Origin: a virus
Lineage: Duplodnaviria > Heunggongvirae > Uroviricota > Caudoviricetes
Virus record (IMG/VR): IMGVR_UViG_2579779076_000011
Direction: 5' to 3' (one strand)
DNA length: 45,626 bases
The translations under genes and the position numbers were made by a program. The notes beneath the pieces are model-generated. The model had not been told where the DNA came from and did no database searches. It was given only the letters and a program-made list of their open reading frames with translations. Below are positions 11,160-20,449 of the stretch, in pieces. Each line of letters opens with the position of its first letter. Within the stretch, counting starts at the first letter, position 1.

Positions 11160-12083
11160 TTATTGGTTTCTGAGGAAAGCGATTCTTGAAAGGGTCATTT
11201 GCGTCTGGCAGTCGACCATTTTCTTGACTTCAGCATCTGTTCCCTGCATTGAAACTTTACCGCACATAGCATCCTTAGTTTTGATCCACTGACGCTGAGA
11301 AGGCAGCAACTCTTTTTTCTTCGCCGGCGTTAACCTGCCCCAGACTGTATTCAAATCAGAGTCAGCATTCGCAAATGCCATTCGGGACTGATCAAGGCTT
11401 TCAGCTTTTTGCGGCTGAAGTTGTGCCTGCCTCTCTATTTGCTTCTCCGCCTCATACCTGGCCTGTTCCTGTGCCCTGAGTTGCACCTGTTGTTCCGCTT
11501 CAATTTGACTCTGTTGGGCATCCTTAGCCTGCTGGATTTTCTGCTGCTCAACGATCGGGTTGATAATGGAAAGCGATGTCAGTAAAGCGGCGCCCACTGA
11601 TATCGGATTATCAGAAGAGGTTTTTACAAAAACGTTTTTCTGATCGTCGGTCGCCTGCACGGTGTAGGTGATACGTTTTGAAAAGGCGTTTGCGTTGTTC
11701 TCCAAAAACAGATTTTCCATTTGCTTATCGAGATTACGATTAAAATTCTTTCTGTAAGCATCAGAAAGCTGGACGTACTCGTTCGCAGGTAGAGTCATCG
11801 TCACGGTCCCTTCACAAGTTTTCATTGTGCTGCCCGTGTCACTTGATGTTGTGGAGATTTCAGAGACGGCTAGTTTGATCTTGTCCAGTGTGCTTCGTTT
11901 GGTCTGATTAGTGACATCAGGGTATTTATCGACCTGTTCAGAGAGTCCTTCATAAGCAGATTTTTTTAATAAATCCATGAGAGCTGATTGGGTCATTTCC
12001 GAAGAACAACCGATCTCATCTTTTTTGTTATCACAGCCTGTAAGGGCAATGGCGAGTAAGAGTACTGAGTATTTTAATCTCAT
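11160..12083 (-). CDS. lipoprotein with C-terminal DUF1311/LprI-like (lysozyme-inhibitor-like) domain
   Basis: Signal peptide plus lipobox LTGC; Gln/Ala-rich coiled linker; C-terminal segment resembles the DUF1311 fold. Good SD. Cargo gene. Confidence 0.55.
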   Translation of the reverse strand: MRLKYSVLLLAIALTGCDNKKDEIGCSSEMTQSALMDLLKKSAYEGLSEQVDKYPDVTNQTKRSTLDKIKLAVSEISTTSSDTGSTMKTCEGTVTMTLPANEYVQLSDAYRKNFNRNLDKQMENLFLENNANAFSKRITYTVQATDDQKNVFVKTSSDNPISVGAALLTSLSIINPIVEQQKIQQAKDAQQSQIEAEQQVQLRAQEQARYEAEKQIERQAQLQPQKAESLDQSRMAFANADSDLNTVWGRLTPAKKKELLPSQRQWIKTKDAMCGKVSMQGTDAEVKKMVDCQTQMTLSRIAFLRNQ

Positions 12084-12535: not shown

Positions 12536-13096
12536 TTATTTTAAAGTACAGCCTGCCCGAAATGCACTGCTAATTTCAACATATTCCGCTCTGGCCGTAC
12601 CTCTAAGTTTCTGAGACTCACGTTCAAAACTCGCCAAATCTTCCTTACATTTTGCCGAAGTAGACTGGAATCCTTTCCCGCACATCTGAAATGTGACTGT
12701 CGGATCCGCAAATCGGGTACGCTGGGCGTAAGCCTGGCAAACAGCGGATGCCCTCGCTTGTTTTTGTCGTGGGCTTAACGGGCGTGCTGGTGTGGCCTGT
12801 TCTGCCCTCTCCATTTTCAGGCGGTAGCAGCTTAAATTACGAGAGGCGATCACCTTTTTAATAGCCTGGGCGCGGCGATAATTTGAATTAAATTCAGGAT
12901 GAGATGATGGATTAAGGTTGAGCAATGGCTCTATATTATCTTCTGCCTGGCAAAGCTGTGAATCGGTGTACTGCGCAAGTTTTGCCGCCTCGATTGCAGC
13001 CGGATCTGGTTGTGAATTTTTTTGGGTATGGCTTACACATCCGGACAGCGTAAATCCAGCGGTCAGTGCTAAGATGATTTTTGATATTCCGTTCAT
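12536..13096 (-). CDS. lipoprotein, unknown function
   Basis: Signal peptide with lipobox LSGC; several Cys; SD AGGAA. Confidence 0.5.
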   Translation of the reverse strand: MNGISKIILALTAGFTLSGCVSHTQKNSQPDPAAIEAAKLAQYTDSQLCQAEDNIEPLLNLNPSSHPEFNSNYRRAQAIKKVIASRNLSCYRLKMERAEQATPARPLSPRQKQARASAVCQAYAQRTRFADPTVTFQMCGKGFQSTSAKCKEDLASFERESQKLRGTARAEYVEISSAFRAGCTLK

Positions 13097-13227: not shown

Positions 13228-14463
13228 TCAGAATTTCCGTTCTTTCCAGCGTTTAACCAACGCGGCCATGTTCAGCGGCCATAATTTAGGCTCAATCACT
13301 TTGCCTTCAAACATCGCGCCGAGCTCAATACCTAGGGCAAAATGTACGGTCATTGTTTCAGGGTTGACGGCCATCAGCTCTGCGTCTAGTAAGTCGTGTA
13401 TCGTTGGAGTCAACAACAGGCCATTATCAGCGCTAAAATTGCCTGAGGTAGCTGGCTCAATGTGCGCCGCTTGCAATCGTTCGCCGTTCTGCCAGCCAGT
13501 CACCGCGCAACGGCCAGCAAAATTATTCCATACCCATTCAACAAACTGCATATGCGCCGTCGTGTCGCGCTGCTCAACGATGCGCTGCGCGGTTCGGGTA
13601 CTGTGGAGTTTGACAGGTTGGCCAAGCGCGGGCGCGGGTTTCTCTTCCTCCACGACGACCACTACTTCCTGCGACATGATGATTCGATCATCGGCTACCA
13701 GTTCCGGAACAACGTCGGCCAGCTTCTCGGCTTCTCGGATGATTTGCTTTTCTTCCTGATCATCCAGGTACCGCTGCACCAGTTCAATGGTCGTGGTGGC
13801 TTCATGCTGGTGTTTGTGGATATAAAGCTCAACATCACGACGCTGGCTGGCTGGAATGTGTTTTGCCAGAAAATCCTGTAGGACGCGATTATCCAGCTTT
13901 GTCGTAACTTTTGATGTCATGCTCACAGAATCATACCGTTTCGGTGTTTCCATCTGCGTTGATTGCAGGCCTGGTAATTCGGTGTTGATTTGAGCGGAAA
14001 CCTTGCGCGGGATGATTGTCGGCGTAAATGCTGGCGTGCTGGCCTGGGACGTGCCACGGCGACGGGCATTCTCCCAAAGGGCTTCTGTTTCAGGGTTTTT
14101 GCGTGCGCCTGGCTTTTGCATAGGCATAGTGCGAATCAGCGCTTCCCAGCCCATATTGACCTTCTGTTTGGCCTCGCGGCGTTTATCGGCCAGCGTAGGT
14201 TTTGATGGTCGTTTTTTGGAGAGCGCTTTCTCTGGTTTTAATTTGATGCCGCGCGATAAACCATTTATCAGTGTTGGATGCACTGATAAGGCTTTGGCCA
14301 ATTGCAAACCGTTTAAATTGCTGCCATCTGTATAAGCGTACATAAACAAATCCGCCCAGCCATCATGTTGAGGGGTCATACCCACGCTGGTTAAGGCTGC
14401 GCGAATCTCTTTTTTGCGAGCTTTGTCCAAGTTAAATTTTGGGGTTTTATTTCGCTTAGTCAT
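13228..14463 (-). CDS. HNH-type nuclease domain protein (C-terminal HNH), N-terminal basic low-complexity region
   Basis: C-terminal GRCAVTGW..AAHI..NGLLLTPTIHDLLD fits an HNH-like motif; N-terminal ~250 aa Lys/Arg-rich with no recognised domain. Confidence 0.55.
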   Translation of the reverse strand: MTKRNKTPKFNLDKARKKEIRAALTSVGMTPQHDGWADLFMYAYTDGSNLNGLQLAKALSVHPTLINGLSRGIKLKPEKALSKKRPSKPTLADKRREAKQKVNMGWEALIRTMPMQKPGARKNPETEALWENARRRGTSQASTPAFTPTIIPRKVSAQINTELPGLQSTQMETPKRYDSVSMTSKVTTKLDNRVLQDFLAKHIPASQRRDVELYIHKHQHEATTTIELVQRYLDDQEEKQIIREAEKLADVVPELVADDRIIMSQEVVVVVEEEKPAPALGQPVKLHSTRTAQRIVEQRDTTAHMQFVEWVWNNFAGRCAVTGWQNGERLQAAHIEPATSGNFSADNGLLLTPTIHDLLDAELMAVNPETMTVHFALGIELGAMFEGKVIEPKLWPLNMAALVKRWKERKF

Positions 14464-14543: not shown

Positions 14544-15395
<852 letters not shown>

Positions 15396-15464
15396 TCATG
15401 TCAATTGACAACTTATAGTTCCCACTAGTTAGCATTAAGATTTTTACAGTGAGGAATAATCAAT

Positions 15465-15516
15465 GTCCGCTCCTGGCACAGAGTGGACGAACAACTGAAG
15501 ACCCGCTGTGAGCGAG
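15465..15516. repeat. structured repeat copy A (partial): hairpin + AACTGAAG spacer + CCGCTGTGAGCGAG
   Basis: GTCCGCTC-N8-GAGTGGAC stem, then GAACAACTGAAGAC, then CCGCTGTGAGCGAG; shares the core with copies B and C but lacks the distal arm. Confidence 0.45.
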
Positions 15517-15675
15517 AAACAGACATCACAACTCACAAGGATTATACGCAGTTTGTTATCCAAACATACGGGTGCCAAGTGTTATAATCCGGCACTAACA
15601 GCATGATGCTTGGAAGTACATTTAAATGTAAAATGATAGTGTACTCTGACTGAAGCCTGGTAAAAAGGAACTGAT

Positions 15676-17055
15676 ATGTACAACAACCTCTATGCCCTCA
15701 CAGAAAGCCTTTTCTGGGTTGATCGACTTTTAGATCAGGAATATGAAAATATTGGATTGAATGAATTGCTAATTGAGTTAGATGAATATAATAAAAGAAT
15801 AGATTCACTGATTATCGAGCAAGCAAATTCTGTACAGGAGTCTCGGCTAAATGTTTACATGGCGGGAAATCGTAATATTGAAAGGTATAAGAGTGGACTG
15901 TTTTCAATGGACAGAGTCATTCTTGATGATGTTCTGTATTCATTGAGCCTACGATACAGAGTGAGTCTAACAGAAAATGCATTTGAAAAAATTATTGTAA
16001 GCGATAGAAAAGAGAAGGTTGAACATCTCAGGAAGGAAATTGCTAGATTTATCAGGTTTGCTAAAGAAAACTTTGATCTTATCCGTGGTGAGTTTATCGT
16101 TTTTGTACGCAGCGAATCTTCTATTAAAGATTCGGAGAGGGCCAATGGAATTTTAGACGATAACTCTGATGCTAATTTTATATATCGATATCTCCCTCCT
16201 AACATTGCCCGTCTTTATGAAAATAGACTATCCGTAAAGAATATAGAACGTCTAGGTAATACAAATAAAATTCGGTTATTAAACAAAAATGTTTTATCTA
16301 ATGAAATTATGTTGGAAATTAAAGACTGTGAAAGTTTATATACAAATGGATATATGTATCAACATATAAAAAATGCCATTGATAATGATGATGGCTCCAT
16401 ATCTATGGAGCTTGTCATGGGAAATCATAGCGGAAAAAAAAGTTATGAACGGTGGGTGCAGGGAGCAAAAAACCGTACGGTTCTCTTTCATTATAAAAAC
16501 CTTATTACTGACCTTAACCAAGCGCATTCATGTAGAGCATCCCTGGGGGCATATTGCCCGTTTCATGGAGAGATTCTTCGTAAACTTGATCAAAAGAATG
16601 AAGTTCAGAGGGTTAAACTCTCTATAGACGTTCCATTCTTAGAGGGACTGACTCCAAGTGAACTCTACAAAATTAGAACTGACTACGAGCCGAGTTTTAA
16701 TTCTTTCCGCTCTGTACTACGTGAAGCTGCGTATGATATAGAAGCAGAAAGTGATCCATATAAGAGACAACTAATAAATCAACATTTTGTCGAGCGGGTG
16801 TGGGATGAAGGATTGACAGATATTGAGCAAAAAATACAAGCCTATAAGCGGAAGAGTAAAAAAGAACTTTTTCTTAACAGTGTGCCTTCATTGATAGGTT
16901 TTATTGGTGCACCAAATCCAGTGTCGTTGGCTACAGGAGCTTTTACGATTCTAAAAGATGTCTTTAATATTACAAGCCATTCTTCAGAAATAAAGAGCCA
17001 CCCTTCATATTTCCTTCTCATGATGTCAAAAGCCAAAAACAAACCTTATGACTGA
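15676..17055 (+). CDS. hypothetical protein (459 aa), AT-rich orphan cargo gene
   Basis: SD AAGGAA before ATG; Lys/Asn/Ile-rich composition typical of horizontally acquired cargo; no recognisable catalytic motif. Confidence 0.6.
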   Translation: MYNNLYALTESLFWVDRLLDQEYENIGLNELLIELDEYNKRIDSLIIEQANSVQESRLNVYMAGNRNIERYKSGLFSMDRVILDDVLYSLSLRYRVSLTENAFEKIIVSDRKEKVEHLRKEIARFIRFAKENFDLIRGEFIVFVRSESSIKDSERANGILDDNSDANFIYRYLPPNIARLYENRLSVKNIERLGNTNKIRLLNKNVLSNEIMLEIKDCESLYTNGYMYQHIKNAIDNDDGSISMELVMGNHSGKKSYERWVQGAKNRTVLFHYKNLITDLNQAHSCRASLGAYCPFHGEILRKLDQKNEVQRVKLSIDVPFLEGLTPSELYKIRTDYEPSFNSFRSVLREAAYDIEAESDPYKRQLINQHFVERVWDEGLTDIEQKIQAYKRKSKKELFLNSVPSLIGFIGAPNPVSLATGAFTILKDVFNITSHSSEIKSHPSYFLLMMSKAKNKPYD

Positions 17056-17170
17056 GGCAGTAGAAAATAAAGTGAAAATATATTCACTTAAGAAAGATGG
17101 TTCTAAAGGGACATAATTAGATTAACCCAGTGACCTGTTCCCCTTGAATCAACATAGGCTGTTGTTAGCT

Positions 17171-17234
17171 ACTTCCGCTTCTGACACGAAGCGGACAAAA
17201 ACTGAAGGTCCGCTGTGAGCGAGGAGCGGAAGTT
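17171..17234. repeat. structured repeat copy B (complete)
   Basis: ACTTCCGC..CCGCTTC-TGACAC-GAAGCGG..AACTGAAGGT..CCGCT-GTGAGCGAGG-AGCGG-AAGTT; the outer ends ACTTCCGC / GCGGAAGT are also inverted repeats. Confidence 0.5.
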
Positions 17235-17377
17235 GATTTTATTGAGAGTAAAACAGATCTATAGTAAATGGTCTTGTTATGTAGGGGATTTACGATAATT
17301 TTACTACCAAGGTCGTTAAAAATTCATATGAAATATCAACGATAGTGACCTATTTTTCATAAGGCCACTATATGAAT

Positions 17378-18040
17378 CTATTGTTCTATTTTAATTTTAT
17401 TTAACGTTATAGGGGCTGGGTTATAGCTAGGTATATATAATATCTCACTCCCTAGCTTGCGCTCTTTTATATTTACTTCTTTAGCGACAAGGTTACCGTC
17501 ATACAACCTAATAATCACGTAGTCTTTAGATTGATCATGAAAGTAACTAAATTCTTTTTTTAATGACGCTTGTTGTAAACCAATTAAGAAACTAAATGTC
17601 ATTATGGCAATAAGGGGAAGGGTTGCAGACCAAATTAAATAACTTGGATTACGTTTATGATTTTTAACAATTTTGTATATAATATAAGTAACTGTTGCTA
17701 TCGATAAACTTAAAACGAAAAAACCACCATATTCAGTCTTATGTCTATAAGACTGAACAATAAAAACAATCATGATAAAAACTGTAACTGCAGTAACTTT
17801 AACTGCTTTTACTTTACTTTCAGGCCATGGAGTAAAAAACATCAACATAACACAAATTATATTAAAAAATAAATATGACATACCCACGAATAAAAATTTA
17901 GAATCTAACGTTATAAACTCCATAGGATAATCAAAATGATATGCATAGCCATATTCAAATGAAATTGCAGACATATAAGATAGAACAGTTATTGCCAATA
18001 TTAGCAAGGCTTCCTTGCTTTTTATAAAGTCAATTATCAT
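17378..18040 (-). CDS. multi-pass membrane protein, unknown function (AT-rich orphan)
   Basis: Five to six hydrophobic helices in the first ~160 aa, soluble C-terminal ~60 aa; no clear SD (start uncertain). Confidence 0.5.
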   Translation of the reverse strand: MIIDFIKSKEALLILAITVLSYMSAISFEYGYAYHFDYPMEFITLDSKFLFVGMSYLFFNIICVMLMFFTPWPESKVKAVKVTAVTVFIMIVFIVQSYRHKTEYGGFFVLSLSIATVTYIIYKIVKNHKRNPSYLIWSATLPLIAIMTFSFLIGLQQASLKKEFSYFHDQSKDYVIIRLYDGNLVAKEVNIKERKLGSEILYIPSYNPAPITLNKIKIEQ

Positions 18041-18364
18041 GATGTTTGTTTTTTAATGAATAAAATAATCACTTACCAGACAGTTAATCTTCTTAATTGT
18101 CATTGTGTTAAGTGAACCCCGAATTTTTCTCAGTTCTTCTGAAGAAGTCCTCATGTATATGATAACAACCAAAAAAATTTTTTTCACTAATTATACTAAA
18201 ATCCATGAAGAATCAGCAGTGTGAAGCAGGGAGAACCTCTAACAAGAGACGCCGTCATTTTGTAAATTTCCCGGCAAACCAGAACATCTGCTTTTAGACA
18301 TAGGATTCAATGTGCTATTACGGCGAGCTGTTCCCACAGATTGATGGAGATAGATGTTAGCAAT

Positions 18365-18433
18365 GCCCGCTTTTGGTACGAAGCGGGCAAGCTAACTGAG
18401 TTGAAAGTTCGCTGTGAGCGAGGAGCGGAAGTT
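18365..18433. repeat. structured repeat copy C (complete)
   Basis: GCCCGCTT-N8-AAGCGGGC hairpin, spacer, then TTCGCTGTGAGCGAGGAGCGGAAGTT; the 3-prime 24 nt are identical to copy B. Confidence 0.5.
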
Positions 18434-18518: not shown

Positions 18519-19298
18519 TTAGTCCTGAAGCATTTTAACTTTCTTCTCATGTTTTTTATATTCGCCTTTTATCCATTCAGGTTCTTCCCGAATAGCTGAG
18601 CGCATACAGTATGTTGGGATATCATTCCAGAAAGCTGTAATCGCATCTGCAAACTCTATAAACTGTGTTTCTGTAACCTCAAGTTGCTCATGACGTAGAC
18701 TAAATCTGTAGCCTCTTGGAATATTGATATCCTGATAATACTCAGGATGCGCGACGGAAAGCACCCGATGGGCATGGCCATCACCGTGCTTATAAACATT
18801 AACCACTTGGCGACAGGCATCGATTTTTTCGTAATAAGCCTTGCTGGTGATATCCATCCCAATCCATTCTAGAATTTCAATTAGCCTTGGGAAGCTAATG
18901 TCCCAGATCATCGATGTTACGGATTTAGCGTCGAGCCAATGGCTGAATTCTCTGATACACTTCTCTCTAAGTTCCTTGTCGAACTGATGAAACATTCCTG
19001 CTGTCAGAGCAAGTGAAACCGTATTTTTCATATCACTGAGAGCAATCCAATGTGAAATTCCTTCATCATGAGCCTGTTCACAGATAGCCCCTTCGTCGTC
19101 ATAATCGGGGTCAAAACGCTTACCGGCGGCCTCATAGTAATCTTGTTCTCTCTGCCTGGCTTCAGCTTCAAGATCAGAATCGCTAAACTGCGAAAATAGA
19201 CGCTTTCTGGCTTCAGCAACATAAAAATTGTGTTTGTCGAGGAAGTAAGACCGATCAATGGTTGCAAAATAAAAAAGTGAAAAATCTTTGTTGCTCAT
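18519..19298 (-). CDS. hypothetical protein (259 aa), orphan cargo gene
   Basis: Good SD (GAGGGAG) before ATG 19298; acidic protein with His-rich patch (HGDGHAH); no family recognised. Confidence 0.6.
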   Translation of the reverse strand: MSNKDFSLFYFATIDRSYFLDKHNFYVAEARKRLFSQFSDSDLEAEARQREQDYYEAAGKRFDPDYDDEGAICEQAHDEGISHWIALSDMKNTVSLALTAGMFHQFDKELREKCIREFSHWLDAKSVTSMIWDISFPRLIEILEWIGMDITSKAYYEKIDACRQVVNVYKHGDGHAHRVLSVAHPEYYQDINIPRGYRFSLRHEQLEVTETQFIEFADAITAFWNDIPTYCMRSAIREEPEWIKGEYKKHEKKVKMLQD

Positions 19299-19807: not shown

Positions 19808-20449
19808 ATGAAAACCCTCTATGAGGACTGGCCTGAAACTTTCGTTAGCCGATTAGATATGTTACGAGCTCTGGATGATCGCGGCTCGACCCGGAGGCTC
19901 TATCTTGAGCGGACCGGGGCAATATTTGACGCTCTGGCAGAAGAGATACGTACAGCCGTTACCAGGCATCCTGAAATCGACGCGAGTGAACTTGATATCG
20001 GGCCGCTGTATCGCTATTACAAACGTGGAGAAAAGGGGAATCCGCTGGCTGACTTACTTATTGAGTTGGCTCCACCAACTTGTGAACGGGTTCGTATATC
20101 TCCTGAAGTGTACACAATCCCGTATCTGTTTTTTGCACTGTTGATAGCGCAAGGCGCTGACAACGATGCCCGCGATTTTTTCAATATGATGATGCGACCG
20201 TTAATCATCGCCTACCGTTTCAAACAACTGGCGCGTTACCTTGGCACTAAGGGCGGAGGACGACCACAGCACAGATTAAAAAGCGAAGCCATTGAACTGG
20301 CTGATCGTTTTTTTACTGAAAACCCGACAGCGCCATTATCGCGTGGTGTGCAATACATATCCGGTATTTTTGTGGCGAAATACTCTGACCCACCTGCAGC
20401 GTCGACGATTAGAAAATGGTTAATTTCAATTTACAGGAGTGATAAATAA
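19808..20449 (+). CDS. hypothetical protein (213 aa)
   Basis: SD GAGGT before ATG; no recognised motif. Confidence 0.55.
   Translation: MKTLYEDWPETFVSRLDMLRALDDRGSTRRLYLERTGAIFDALAEEIRTAVTRHPEIDASELDIGPLYRYYKRGEKGNPLADLLIELAPPTCERVRISPEVYTIPYLFFALLIAQGADNDARDFFNMMMRPLIIAYRFKQLARYLGTKGGGRPQHRLKSEAIELADRFFTENPTAPLSRGVQYISGIFVAKYSDPPAASTIRKWLISIYRSDK

What the first reader, a model, noticed from the sequence alone, without database searches (positions are those of the whole stretch)
15676..17055. 459 aa AT-rich orphan protein as candidate defence or exclusion gene
A large, strongly AT-rich ORF (Lys/Asn/Ile-rich) sits in the accessory island between the antirepressor and the nin/Q region, a classic moron hotspot of lambdoid prophages. 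It has its own SD and is divergently oriented from the GIY-YIG gene across an AT-rich promoter region. I recognise no domain, which makes it a candidate for an uncharacterised abortive-infection or anti-phage function.
Basis: inference. Interest (0 to 1): 0.65.

Follow-up and report, generated by a model that had tools for sequence, protein, structure and literature searches.

The report
Unannotated candidate anti-phage gene in prophage
A real, conserved 459-residue gene of unknown fold in an E. coli prophage belongs to a large unnamed protein family that sits next to known anti-phage defence genes on many different mobile elements, so it is a strong but untested candidate for a new defence protein.

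Summary
The ORF at 15676-17055(+) is real: 459 aa, GC 0.36 against 0.48 for the window, dN/dS 0.11-0.15. It is not an orphan. About 31 close clusters occur in Enterobacterales, and a profile search finds 444 family representatives, mostly full-length (~450 aa), in Vibrio, Proteus, Klebsiella plasmids and metagenomes. None has a name or a Pfam, PADLOC, PHROG or NCBIfam model. A confident AlphaFold model of residues 1-360 (pLDDT 85) matches nothing in the PDB or in viral structure libraries. The gene moves as a self-contained cassette. It lies 325 bp from PD-T4-3/CMoRE here. Relatives lie beside type I R-M and DarTG in O157 islands, in the P2 gpA-gpQ defence hotspot with a PD-T4-6-like kinase, and next to Shedu, CBASS, McrBC, Ppl, AbiE and others. 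The family shares a C-terminal ~30-aa Ala/Gly-rich uncharged segment and a conserved aromatic-basic tail. My best reading is a stand-alone abortive-infection-type defence protein, with a cytosolic sensor of new fold and a membrane-active C-terminus. The defence role rests on context only, and the mechanism is inferred. No phenotype exists.

The parts
15676..17055 (+). Target CDS: 459 aa including stop, 53 kDa, pI 6.6. It is a member of an unnamed superfamily of ~450-aa proteins.
15676..16755 (+). Residues 1-360: a soluble alpha/beta plus helical domain, modelled with confidence (pLDDT 84.8, pTM 0.85), with no recognisable structural relative. It carries the superfamily-invariant residues Y38, D85 and W260, and the near-invariant R334, F341, F344 and R345.
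16867..16953 (+). Residues 398-426 (LFLNSVPSLIGFIGAPNPVSLATGAFTIL): a conserved uncharged Ala/Gly/Leu-rich segment preceded by a Lys/Arg cluster. It is a candidate membrane-inserting helical hairpin. Insertion energy is borderline across the family and weak in this protein.
16999..17019 (+). Residues 442-448, HPSYFLL: a conserved C-terminal aromatic-basic motif, NPxYFLWK in the wider family.
15665..15669 (+). Shine-Dalgarno AAGGA, 6 nt upstream of the ATG.
   Evidence: read from the sequence
15580..15588 (+). Extended -10 promoter-like element TGtTATAAT, conserved as TGcTGTAAT in the O157 island copy. This is an inferred promoter; the consensus scan did not list it because there is no -35 match.
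15617..15630 (+). Perfect 14-bp palindrome TACATTTAAATGTA in the leader, identical in the O157 island copy. It is a possible operator or RNA hairpin and is untested.
15455..15527 (+). Copy 1 (degenerate) of a ~75-nt structured intergenic repeat. Clear homology with the O157 island cassette begins inside it, at about 15503.
17163..17234 (+). Copy 2 of the repeat. It forms a strong hairpin (-35.7 kcal/mol, z -4.9) followed by a T-rich run, so it is terminator-like and sits between the convergent target gene and the 220-aa gene.
14544..15350 (-). Divergent neighbour: PD-T4-3/CMoRE, a validated single-gene type IV GIY-YIG restriction endonuclease. This is context and not part of the target gene.

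Best explanation
The gene encodes a stand-alone anti-phage (or anti-mobile-element) defence protein of a previously unnamed family, carried as an independently mobile cassette in the accessory region of a lambdoid prophage.

Proposed mechanism (inferred, not shown): the ~395-residue cytosolic N-terminal part has a fold without known relatives and a small set of invariant residues (Y38, D85, W260, R334, R345) that looks more like a binding site than a hydrolase active site. I propose it acts as the sensor of an infection cue. Activation would then release or oligomerise the C-terminal Ala/Gly-rich hydrophobic helical hairpin and its aromatic-basic tail at the inner membrane. That would collapse membrane integrity or potential and abort the infection.

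Shown: the gene is real and under purifying selection. It belongs to a large family. It moves horizontally as a unit. It lies next to known defence genes in most contexts examined. It has no detectable homology to any known family or fold. The family shares the C-terminal hydrophobic segment.

Inferred: the defence function, autonomy, sensing, and membrane action.
For: Real, selected gene.

Family size and absence of annotation.

Self-contained mobility: a gene-sized cassette of about 1.6 kb at 91% identity occurs in 51 O157-type genomes in a different island. GC stays at 0.32-0.40 in hosts of very different GC.

The gene occurs without any conserved partner in the window, the O157 island, Pectobacterium, Cronobacter and Entomomonas.

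Defence context in at least 11 of 16 characterised independent neighbourhoods:
- PD-T4-3
- hsdRMS and darTG
- the P2 gpA-gpQ hotspot with a PD-T4-6-like kinase
- OLD-like, YafQ/RelB and SMEK proteins
- PDC-S32/AbiJ and Abi_2
- McrBC and an Eco57I-like R-M system
- HNH, KAP NTPase and Schlafen
- Ppl
- CBASS and RES
- AbiE, PD-T7-5 and PDC models
- Shedu and GmrSD_C

No fold or sequence relative.

C-terminal segment: in 73 of 80 members the most hydrophobic 19-mer lies 37-66 residues from the C-terminus. The uncharged stretch has a median of 30 aa against 15 elsewhere in the proteins, with composition A 21%, G 15% and L 15%. There is a net positive charge before it. AlphaFold predicts a helix-break-helix there.
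Against: There is no experimental phenotype for any family member, and none is mentioned in the searchable literature.

Association with defence genes is not proof. Anti-defence genes, addiction modules and other cargo also collect in these hotspots.

The membrane-insertion energy of the C-terminal segment is borderline across the family (median +3.3 kcal/mol) and poor in this protein (+7.6). AlphaFold confidence there is below 50, so membrane action is weakly supported.

Many relatives have tightly coupled but mutually unrelated partner genes. That could mean the protein normally works as one subunit of multi-gene systems.

Some contexts (Pectobacterium, Cronobacter, Entomomonas, Vibrio) show no recognisable defence gene nearby.
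Confidence: 0.4

Rival explanations
1. The protein is not autonomous. It would be a modular sensor, adaptor or regulator subunit that plugs into different neighbouring effectors (nuclease, kinase, McrBC, or unknown partners). In this prophage it would work together with the adjacent nucleases, PD-T4-3/CMoRE and the HNH_2 protein, or with the downstream 220-aa membrane protein.
For: Tightly coupled same-strand partners occur in many loci:
- a ~370-aa protein 11-14 nt upstream in at least 4 loci
- a 267-aa protein 17-29 nt downstream in 5 loci
- a kinase 54-67 nt downstream in 2 genera
- McrC overlapping the start by 28 nt
- HNH_2 68 nt upstream
- a 5-gene operon in Vibrio
.

An HNH_2 protein is nearby both in the window and in the distant locus L017.
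Against: The partners are unrelated to one another.

PD-T4-3 and PD-T4-6 are validated as single-gene systems.

The cassette moved between the prophage and the O157 island without any neighbour.

The gene occurs solo beside an IS element or an integrase in three other genera.

In the window it is divergently transcribed from the nucleases and separated from the 220-aa gene by a terminator-like repeat.
Confidence: 0.2
2. The gene benefits the mobile element in a way other than killing or blocking incoming phage. Possibilities are an anti-defence (counter-immunity) protein, an addiction or toxin module that stabilises the element, or a superinfection or entry-exclusion factor acting at the membrane.
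For: The gene is found only on mobile elements: prophages, P2 and P4-like elements, conjugative plasmids, and integrase- or IS-flanked islets. Anti-defence and addiction genes share these hotspots. The C-terminal hydrophobic segment could equally serve an exclusion function.
Against: There is no adjacent antitoxin-like gene in the window or in the other solo contexts. By established knowledge, typical exclusion proteins are small membrane proteins or lipoproteins and typical anti-restriction proteins are small and acidic, whereas this is a 53-kDa, mostly cytosolic, near-neutral protein. On plasmids it lies near the rep/par/integrase region with Ppl, and no leading-region anti-defence genes were seen among its neighbours.
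Confidence: 0.15
3. The ORF is a decaying or silenced AT-rich remnant with no current function.
For: Low GC makes H-NS silencing plausible (established knowledge). No function is known and no strong -35 element was found.
Against: dN/dS is 0.11-0.15 over dS up to 0.96. The reading frame is intact in all 57 E. coli genomes that hold it and across genera. There are hundreds of full-length relatives.
Confidence: 0.02

Closest known systems
Single-gene prophage or hotspot defence proteins found by functional selection or hotspot mining (for example PD-T4-3/CMoRE and PD-T4-6 of Vassallo et al. 2022, and P2/P4 hotspot cargo of Rousset et al. 2022)
   Same: Same genomic niche and organisation. It is one gene with its own expression signals, patchily distributed (57 of 5426 complete E. 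coli genomes), carried in prophage accessory regions, in the P2 gpA-gpQ hotspot and in islands, and it sits directly beside PD-T4-3 and PD-T4-6-like genes.
   Different: There is no sequence similarity to any PADLOC v2 model, for the target or for 80 relatives. It has no nuclease, kinase or other recognisable domain, and no phenotype has been shown.
Abortive-infection proteins that pair a cytosolic sensor with a membrane-disrupting C-terminus (for example CBASS/Pycsar transmembrane effectors and retron 2TM effectors); comparison from established knowledge only
   Same: The architecture resembles them: a large soluble domain followed by a short conserved hydrophobic C-terminal region flanked by basic residues.
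   Different: No homology was detected. The hydrophobic segment is short (~30 aa), Ala/Gly-rich and of borderline insertion energy. There is no associated signal-generating enzyme in the window.
Pfam DUF6236
   Same: Three of 80 superfamily members give weak hits (best E 0.0013).
   Different: The hits fall well short of a confident match. The target itself gives no hit at E 0.1, and DUF6236 has no known function and no literature.
Lambdoid-phage 'morons' (Hendrix/Juhala concept: an extra gene with its own promoter and terminator, of deviant composition, inserted between conserved phage genes)
   Same: GC is 0.36 against 0.48 for the window. The gene has a promoter-like extended -10 and a terminator-like hairpin. 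It lies between the replication/antirepressor block and the nin/Q block, and the same unit is found elsewhere without the phage.
   Different: Moron is a structural category and says nothing about function.

Membership tests
Any known or candidate defence system in PADLOC-DB v2.0.0 | Significant match to a system-specific protein HMM | tested here: not met
   The target gives 0 families at E 0.1. The 80 superfamily members give only one chance-level CasR hit.
Any curated protein family (Pfam-A, NCBIfam, PHROGs) | Match above the curated cut-off | tested here: not met
   No hit in Pfam or PHROGs. The only NCBIfam hit scores 12.5 bits against a cut-off of 220. Across the superfamily there are only weak DUF6236 hits in 3 of 80 members.
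Defence-island / hotspot cargo (operational class) | Homologs recurrently located within a few genes of validated defence systems in independent genomic contexts | tested here: met
   At least 11 of 16 characterised contexts have a recognised defence gene within about 5 kb. No formal background control was run.
P2-like phage gpA-gpQ hotspot cargo (Rousset et al. 2022) | Located between the replication gene gpA and the portal gene gpQ of a P2-like prophage | tested here: met
   The Morganella homolog (79% identity) lies between Phage_GPA and Phage_portal in three loci. The hotspot definition comes from PMC9122126. This feature is not met for the window copy itself, which is in a lambdoid prophage.
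Anti-phage defence system (functional class) | Reduces phage plating or propagation when expressed | not testable with these tools
Integral or tail-anchored membrane protein | A hydrophobic segment with favourable predicted insertion energy, and membrane localisation | tested here: inconclusive
   There is a conserved uncharged segment of ~30 aa. However, the Hessa-scale sum for the best 19-mer has a median of +3.3 kcal/mol and is +7.6 in the target, and AlphaFold confidence there is below 50. No dedicated TM predictor was available.
Type II toxin-antitoxin module | Adjacent co-transcribed small antitoxin gene | tested here: not met
   There is no same-strand neighbour in the window. Both flanking genes are on the opposite strand.

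The most novel reading that the evidence does not exclude
The gene would be the E. coli prophage representative of a large, so far unrecognised superfamily, with at least 444 clusters at 50% identity in Enterobacterales, Vibrionaceae, Proteus and Morganella, conjugative Klebsiella plasmids and metagenomes. The members would be immune proteins with a new sensor fold and a glycine/alanine-zipper-like C-terminal membrane hairpin. This would be a new class of single-protein abortive-infection effector that evolution also wires into multi-gene systems, such as after McrBC, with Ser/Thr kinases, or in a five-gene Vibrio operon.
Probability: 0.3. Interest if true: 0.75.

Novelty: new variant of a known kind. 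Interest (0 to 1): 0.55.

Why it matters
If the gene is confirmed as a defence gene, it would add a widespread family to the anti-phage repertoire. Current annotation tools (PADLOC, Pfam, NCBIfam) miss this family completely, including on clinically relevant Klebsiella conjugative plasmids and in O157:H7 islands. Because the fold has no known relative, the sensing mechanism would probably be new. The gene is easy to test: it is about 1.9 kb with its native signals, it is a single gene in E. coli, and panels of coliphages are available. The finding also illustrates how defence cargo is swapped between lambdoid prophages, P2 hotspots, plasmids and chromosomal islands, possibly at a structured ~75-nt junction repeat.

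Tried and rejected
- Domain libraries (Pfam, PADLOC, PHROGs, NCBIfam) gave nothing for the target or for the 80 relatives.
- PDB sequence-profile searches with the close and the broad alignments gave nothing.
- tblastn against INPHARED phages found no match. IMG/VR holds three identical prophage-type contigs, and the distant clade is absent from IMG/VR by pattern scan.
- The species-representative genome scan returned only one locus. The profile word-index search with the broad alignment added almost nothing. The broad alignments were too diverse for locus fetching.
- I tested whether the kinase neighbour is an obligate partner. I rejected this as the default reading because the kinase matches the single-gene PD-T4-6 system and is absent from most loci.
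- I tested whether the upstream genes in three plasmid contexts share a domain. They do not.
- I checked the 'Bandua' nuclease-plus-kinase system of a 2026 paper. No sequence data are held, so it cannot be compared.
- Rfam found nothing for the flanking repeat. By eye I found no integron attC core sites in it and no integron integrase nearby, so I do not call it attC.
- I rejected a nuclease reading. Only one acidic residue (D85) is conserved across the superfamily.

Full report
OBSERVATION. The ORF 15676-17055 (+) is exactly as described: ATG start, 459 codons. RefSeq annotates it at the same coordinates as hypothetical protein WP_000282641.1 in E. coli E24377A. Its GC content is 0.358 (GC3 0.30) against 0.48 for the window, and the composition profile shows a trough from about 15500 to 18250. 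By my own arithmetic, in DNA this AT-rich a 459-codon open frame has a chance probability of about 1e-14. Pairwise dN/dS against the O157, Pectobacterium, Serratia and Morganella homologs is 0.11-0.15, with dS up to 0.96. It is therefore a real protein-coding gene under purifying selection.

A Shine-Dalgarno AAGGA lies 6 nt before the ATG. The gene is divergent from the GIY-YIG gene, whose RefSeq CDS is 14544-15350 (-). It lies between an ORF6N antirepressor-like gene and the DUF1367/DUF1364/Q block of a lambdoid prophage.

NOT AN ORPHAN. A search of 5.8 billion proteins found 31 clusters at 38-91% identity. All are about 455 aa, all are in Enterobacterales (E. coli, Salmonella, Pectobacterium, Serratia, Morganella, Pantoea, Cronobacter, Yersinia), and all are named 'hypothetical' with no Pfam domain. 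A profile of 25 members, scored against 1.84 billion cluster representatives, found 444 proteins at E of 1e-3 or better and 145 at 1e-10 or better. Most align end to end at about 450 aa. Named members of these further clades come from Klebsiella, Enterobacter, Proteus, Morganella, several Vibrio species, Enterovibrio, Entomomonas, Oceanimonas and a Phenylobacterium MAG, and again all are 'hypothetical'. Relatives at 38% identity sit on 78 plasmids, of which 56 are Klebsiella and 54 are conjugative.

Across 80 diverse members (15-38% identity to the target), only Y38, D85 and W260 are invariant. R334, F341, F344, R345, L348, P320 and I211 are conserved in at least 90%.

NO RECOGNISABLE DOMAIN OR FOLD. 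The target has no hit in Pfam, PADLOC, PHROGs or NCBIfam. Scanning all 80 relatives gives only weak DUF6236 hits in three of them, and nothing meaningful in PADLOC. PDB sequence-profile searches are empty.

C-TERMINUS. In 73 of 80 members the most hydrophobic 19-mer lies 37-66 residues from the C-terminus. The longest stretch without charged residues in the last 95 residues has a median of 30 aa (IQR 27-34), against 15 in the rest of the proteins. Its composition is Ala 21%, Gly 15% and Leu 15%. It is preceded by net positive charge and followed by a conserved NPxYFLWK-type motif, which is HPSYFLL in the target. AlphaFold draws it as a helix-break-helix at the end of a long stalk helix, at low confidence.

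On the Hessa scale the best 19-mer has a median of +3.3 kcal/mol and is +7.6 in the target. Membrane insertion is therefore plausible, perhaps conditional or oligomeric, but it is not established.

GENOMIC BEHAVIOUR. Among 5426 complete E. coli genomes, 6 carry the identical prophage locus. A further 51, mostly O157:H7-type, carry a 91%-identical copy that covers only the gene and its short flanks. In those 51 genomes the gene lies in a chromosomal island between an IS66 element and a GTPase/Ag43 block. That island also carries a type I R-M system with darTG inserted in it, and a small weakly HEPN_AbiU2-like gene sits next door. Aligning the flanks shows that the shared unit runs from about 15503 (weaker blocks reach back to about 15416) to about 17102. 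A TGnTATAAT-type extended -10 and a perfect 14-bp palindrome in the leader are both conserved. The gene's GC stays at 0.32-0.40 in hosts with very different genomic GC. It is therefore a self-contained, horizontally moving cassette.

NEIGHBOURHOODS. I examined about 16 independent contexts.
- In the window, the nearest gene is PD-T4-3 (PADLOC E 7e-138). PD-T4-3 is now characterised as CMoRE, a single-protein type IV GIY-YIG restriction enzyme against hmC and ghmC DNA (PMC12923530). An HNH_2 protein lies beyond it.
- In Morganella P2-like prophages, the homolog lies between gpA and the portal gene. This is the P2 defence hotspot of Rousset et al. (PMC9122126). It is followed there by a 534-aa Ser/Thr kinase that matches the single-gene system PD-T4-6. 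The same pair sits beside an integrase in Serratia.
- On a Pantoea plasmid it lies among SMEK_N, YafQ/RelB and OLD-like genes.
- In Yersinia it lies near PDC-S32/AbiJ and Abi_2.
- On a Klebsiella IncFIA plasmid it lies near Ppl and KAP-like NTPases.
- In metagenomic loci it lies immediately after McrBC and an Eco57I-like R-M system; next to HNH, KAP NTPase and Schlafen; 200 nt from a CBASS cyclase; and 141 nt from a RES toxin.
- In a Proteus P4-like island it lies next to Shedu (E 5e-73) and GmrSD_C.
- A batch PADLOC scan of 150 non-redundant neighbours within 5 kb also found AbiEi/Eii, PD-T7-5, a CBASS 2TM effector, a type I MTase and several PDC candidates.
- Pectobacterium (solo with IS3), Cronobacter, Entomomonas and a Vibrio five-gene operon of unknowns show no recognised defence gene.

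The family member is the only constant element. Tightly coupled partners exist in some lineages: a ~370-aa protein upstream, a 267-aa protein downstream, the kinase, McrC and HNH. These partners are unrelated to each other and have no known relatives.

INTERPRETATION. The best-supported explanation is an autonomous defence gene of a new family. The mechanism I commit to has two parts: a cytosolic sensor domain of new fold, and a C-terminal Ala/Gly-rich hairpin that acts on the membrane to abort infection. This is inference from architecture. I give about 0.6 to a defence role and about 0.4 to the whole statement.

The main rival (0.2) is that the protein is a modular subunit that needs neighbours. 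The variable operon partners favour this reading. The solo occurrences and the neighbour-free transfer between E. coli elements argue against it.

A second rival (0.15) is another function that benefits the mobile element, such as anti-defence, addiction or exclusion.

A dead ORF is excluded by the selection analysis.

NOVELTY. No accession or peptide of the family appears in the searchable literature or in the DefensePredictor supplements. No model exists in PADLOC v2, Pfam or NCBIfam. The kind of thing, a single-gene defence candidate in a prophage or hotspot, is well known. The family, the fold and the proposed sensor-plus-membrane-tail design are not described. I therefore rate it a new variant of a known kind with interest 0.55. 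It is a well-supported and easily testable candidate, but it is one of many such predictions until a phenotype is shown.

Noticed in passing
window 15455-15527, 17163-17234, 18355-18433; also L002 11821-11840, L020 4044-4063, L019 4001-4032: A ~75-nt imperfect-palindromic repeat occurs three times in the same orientation and brackets the target gene and the next gene. Its core CCGCTGTGAGCGAG gives 3 hits against 0.24 expected. Copies 2 and 3 fold strongly (z about -4.4 to -5.4). There is no Rfam match. Diverged copies sit at cassette junctions in other E. coli islands, including the same IS66-GTPase hotspot carrying different cargo, and 542 of 5426 genomes hold at least a partial copy. It may be a moron terminator and/or a recombination junction for cassette exchange.
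   Followed up: partly
window 17378-18040 (-): This is a 220-aa predicted multi-pass membrane protein with extremely low GC (~0.28). It has no hit in PADLOC, PHROGs or NCBIfam and only a sub-threshold 7TMR-DISM_7TM hit. It lies between repeat copies 2 and 3, so it is a second independent cassette of unknown function. It co-occurs with the target only in the prophage version.
   Followed up: partly
window 13228-14463 (-): This is a 411-aa protein with a C-terminal HNH_2 domain (phrog_23050; weak PADLOC HNH hit) next to PD-T4-3. It may be a further restriction-like nuclease. An HNH_2 protein also lies directly upstream of a distant family member in L017.
   Followed up: partly
window 14544-15350 (-): The GIY-YIG neighbour is PD-T4-3, now characterised as CMoRE, a type IV restriction endonuclease specific for 5hmC and glucosyl-5hmC DNA. 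This prophage therefore already carries one validated anti-T-even defence.
   Followed up: yes
window 15617-15630: A perfect 14-bp palindrome TACATTTAAATGTA lies in the target's leader, downstream of an extended -10 (15580-15588). It is identical in the 91%-identity O157 copy, even though that leader has a 34-nt indel nearby. It is a candidate operator or RNA hairpin controlling expression.
   Followed up: partly
L045/L046 2850-9792 (Vibrio parahaemolyticus): A distant family member is the fourth gene of a tight five-gene operon (408, 705, 594, 452 and 134 aa). None of these genes has any Pfam or PADLOC hit. The operon is inserted next to a filamentous (Zot/Rep_trans) prophage and may be an unrecognised multi-gene system.
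   Followed up: partly
L007-L009 10001-13033 and L006 10001-13038: The family member and a 534-aa PD-T4-6-like / mad6-like Ser/Thr kinase travel together as a pair in Morganella P2-like prophages and in Serratia. It is unclear whether they form a two-gene system or two stacked single-gene systems.
   Followed up: partly
window 18519-19298 (-), 19808-20449 (+), 11160-12083 (-), 12536-13096 (-): Further accessory genes of unknown function lie in the same island: phrog_19541, phrog_5215, an LprI-family protein (phrog_5094) and a 186-aa putative lipoprotein. The whole 11-20.5 kb stretch looks like a stack of independent morons.
   Followed up: no
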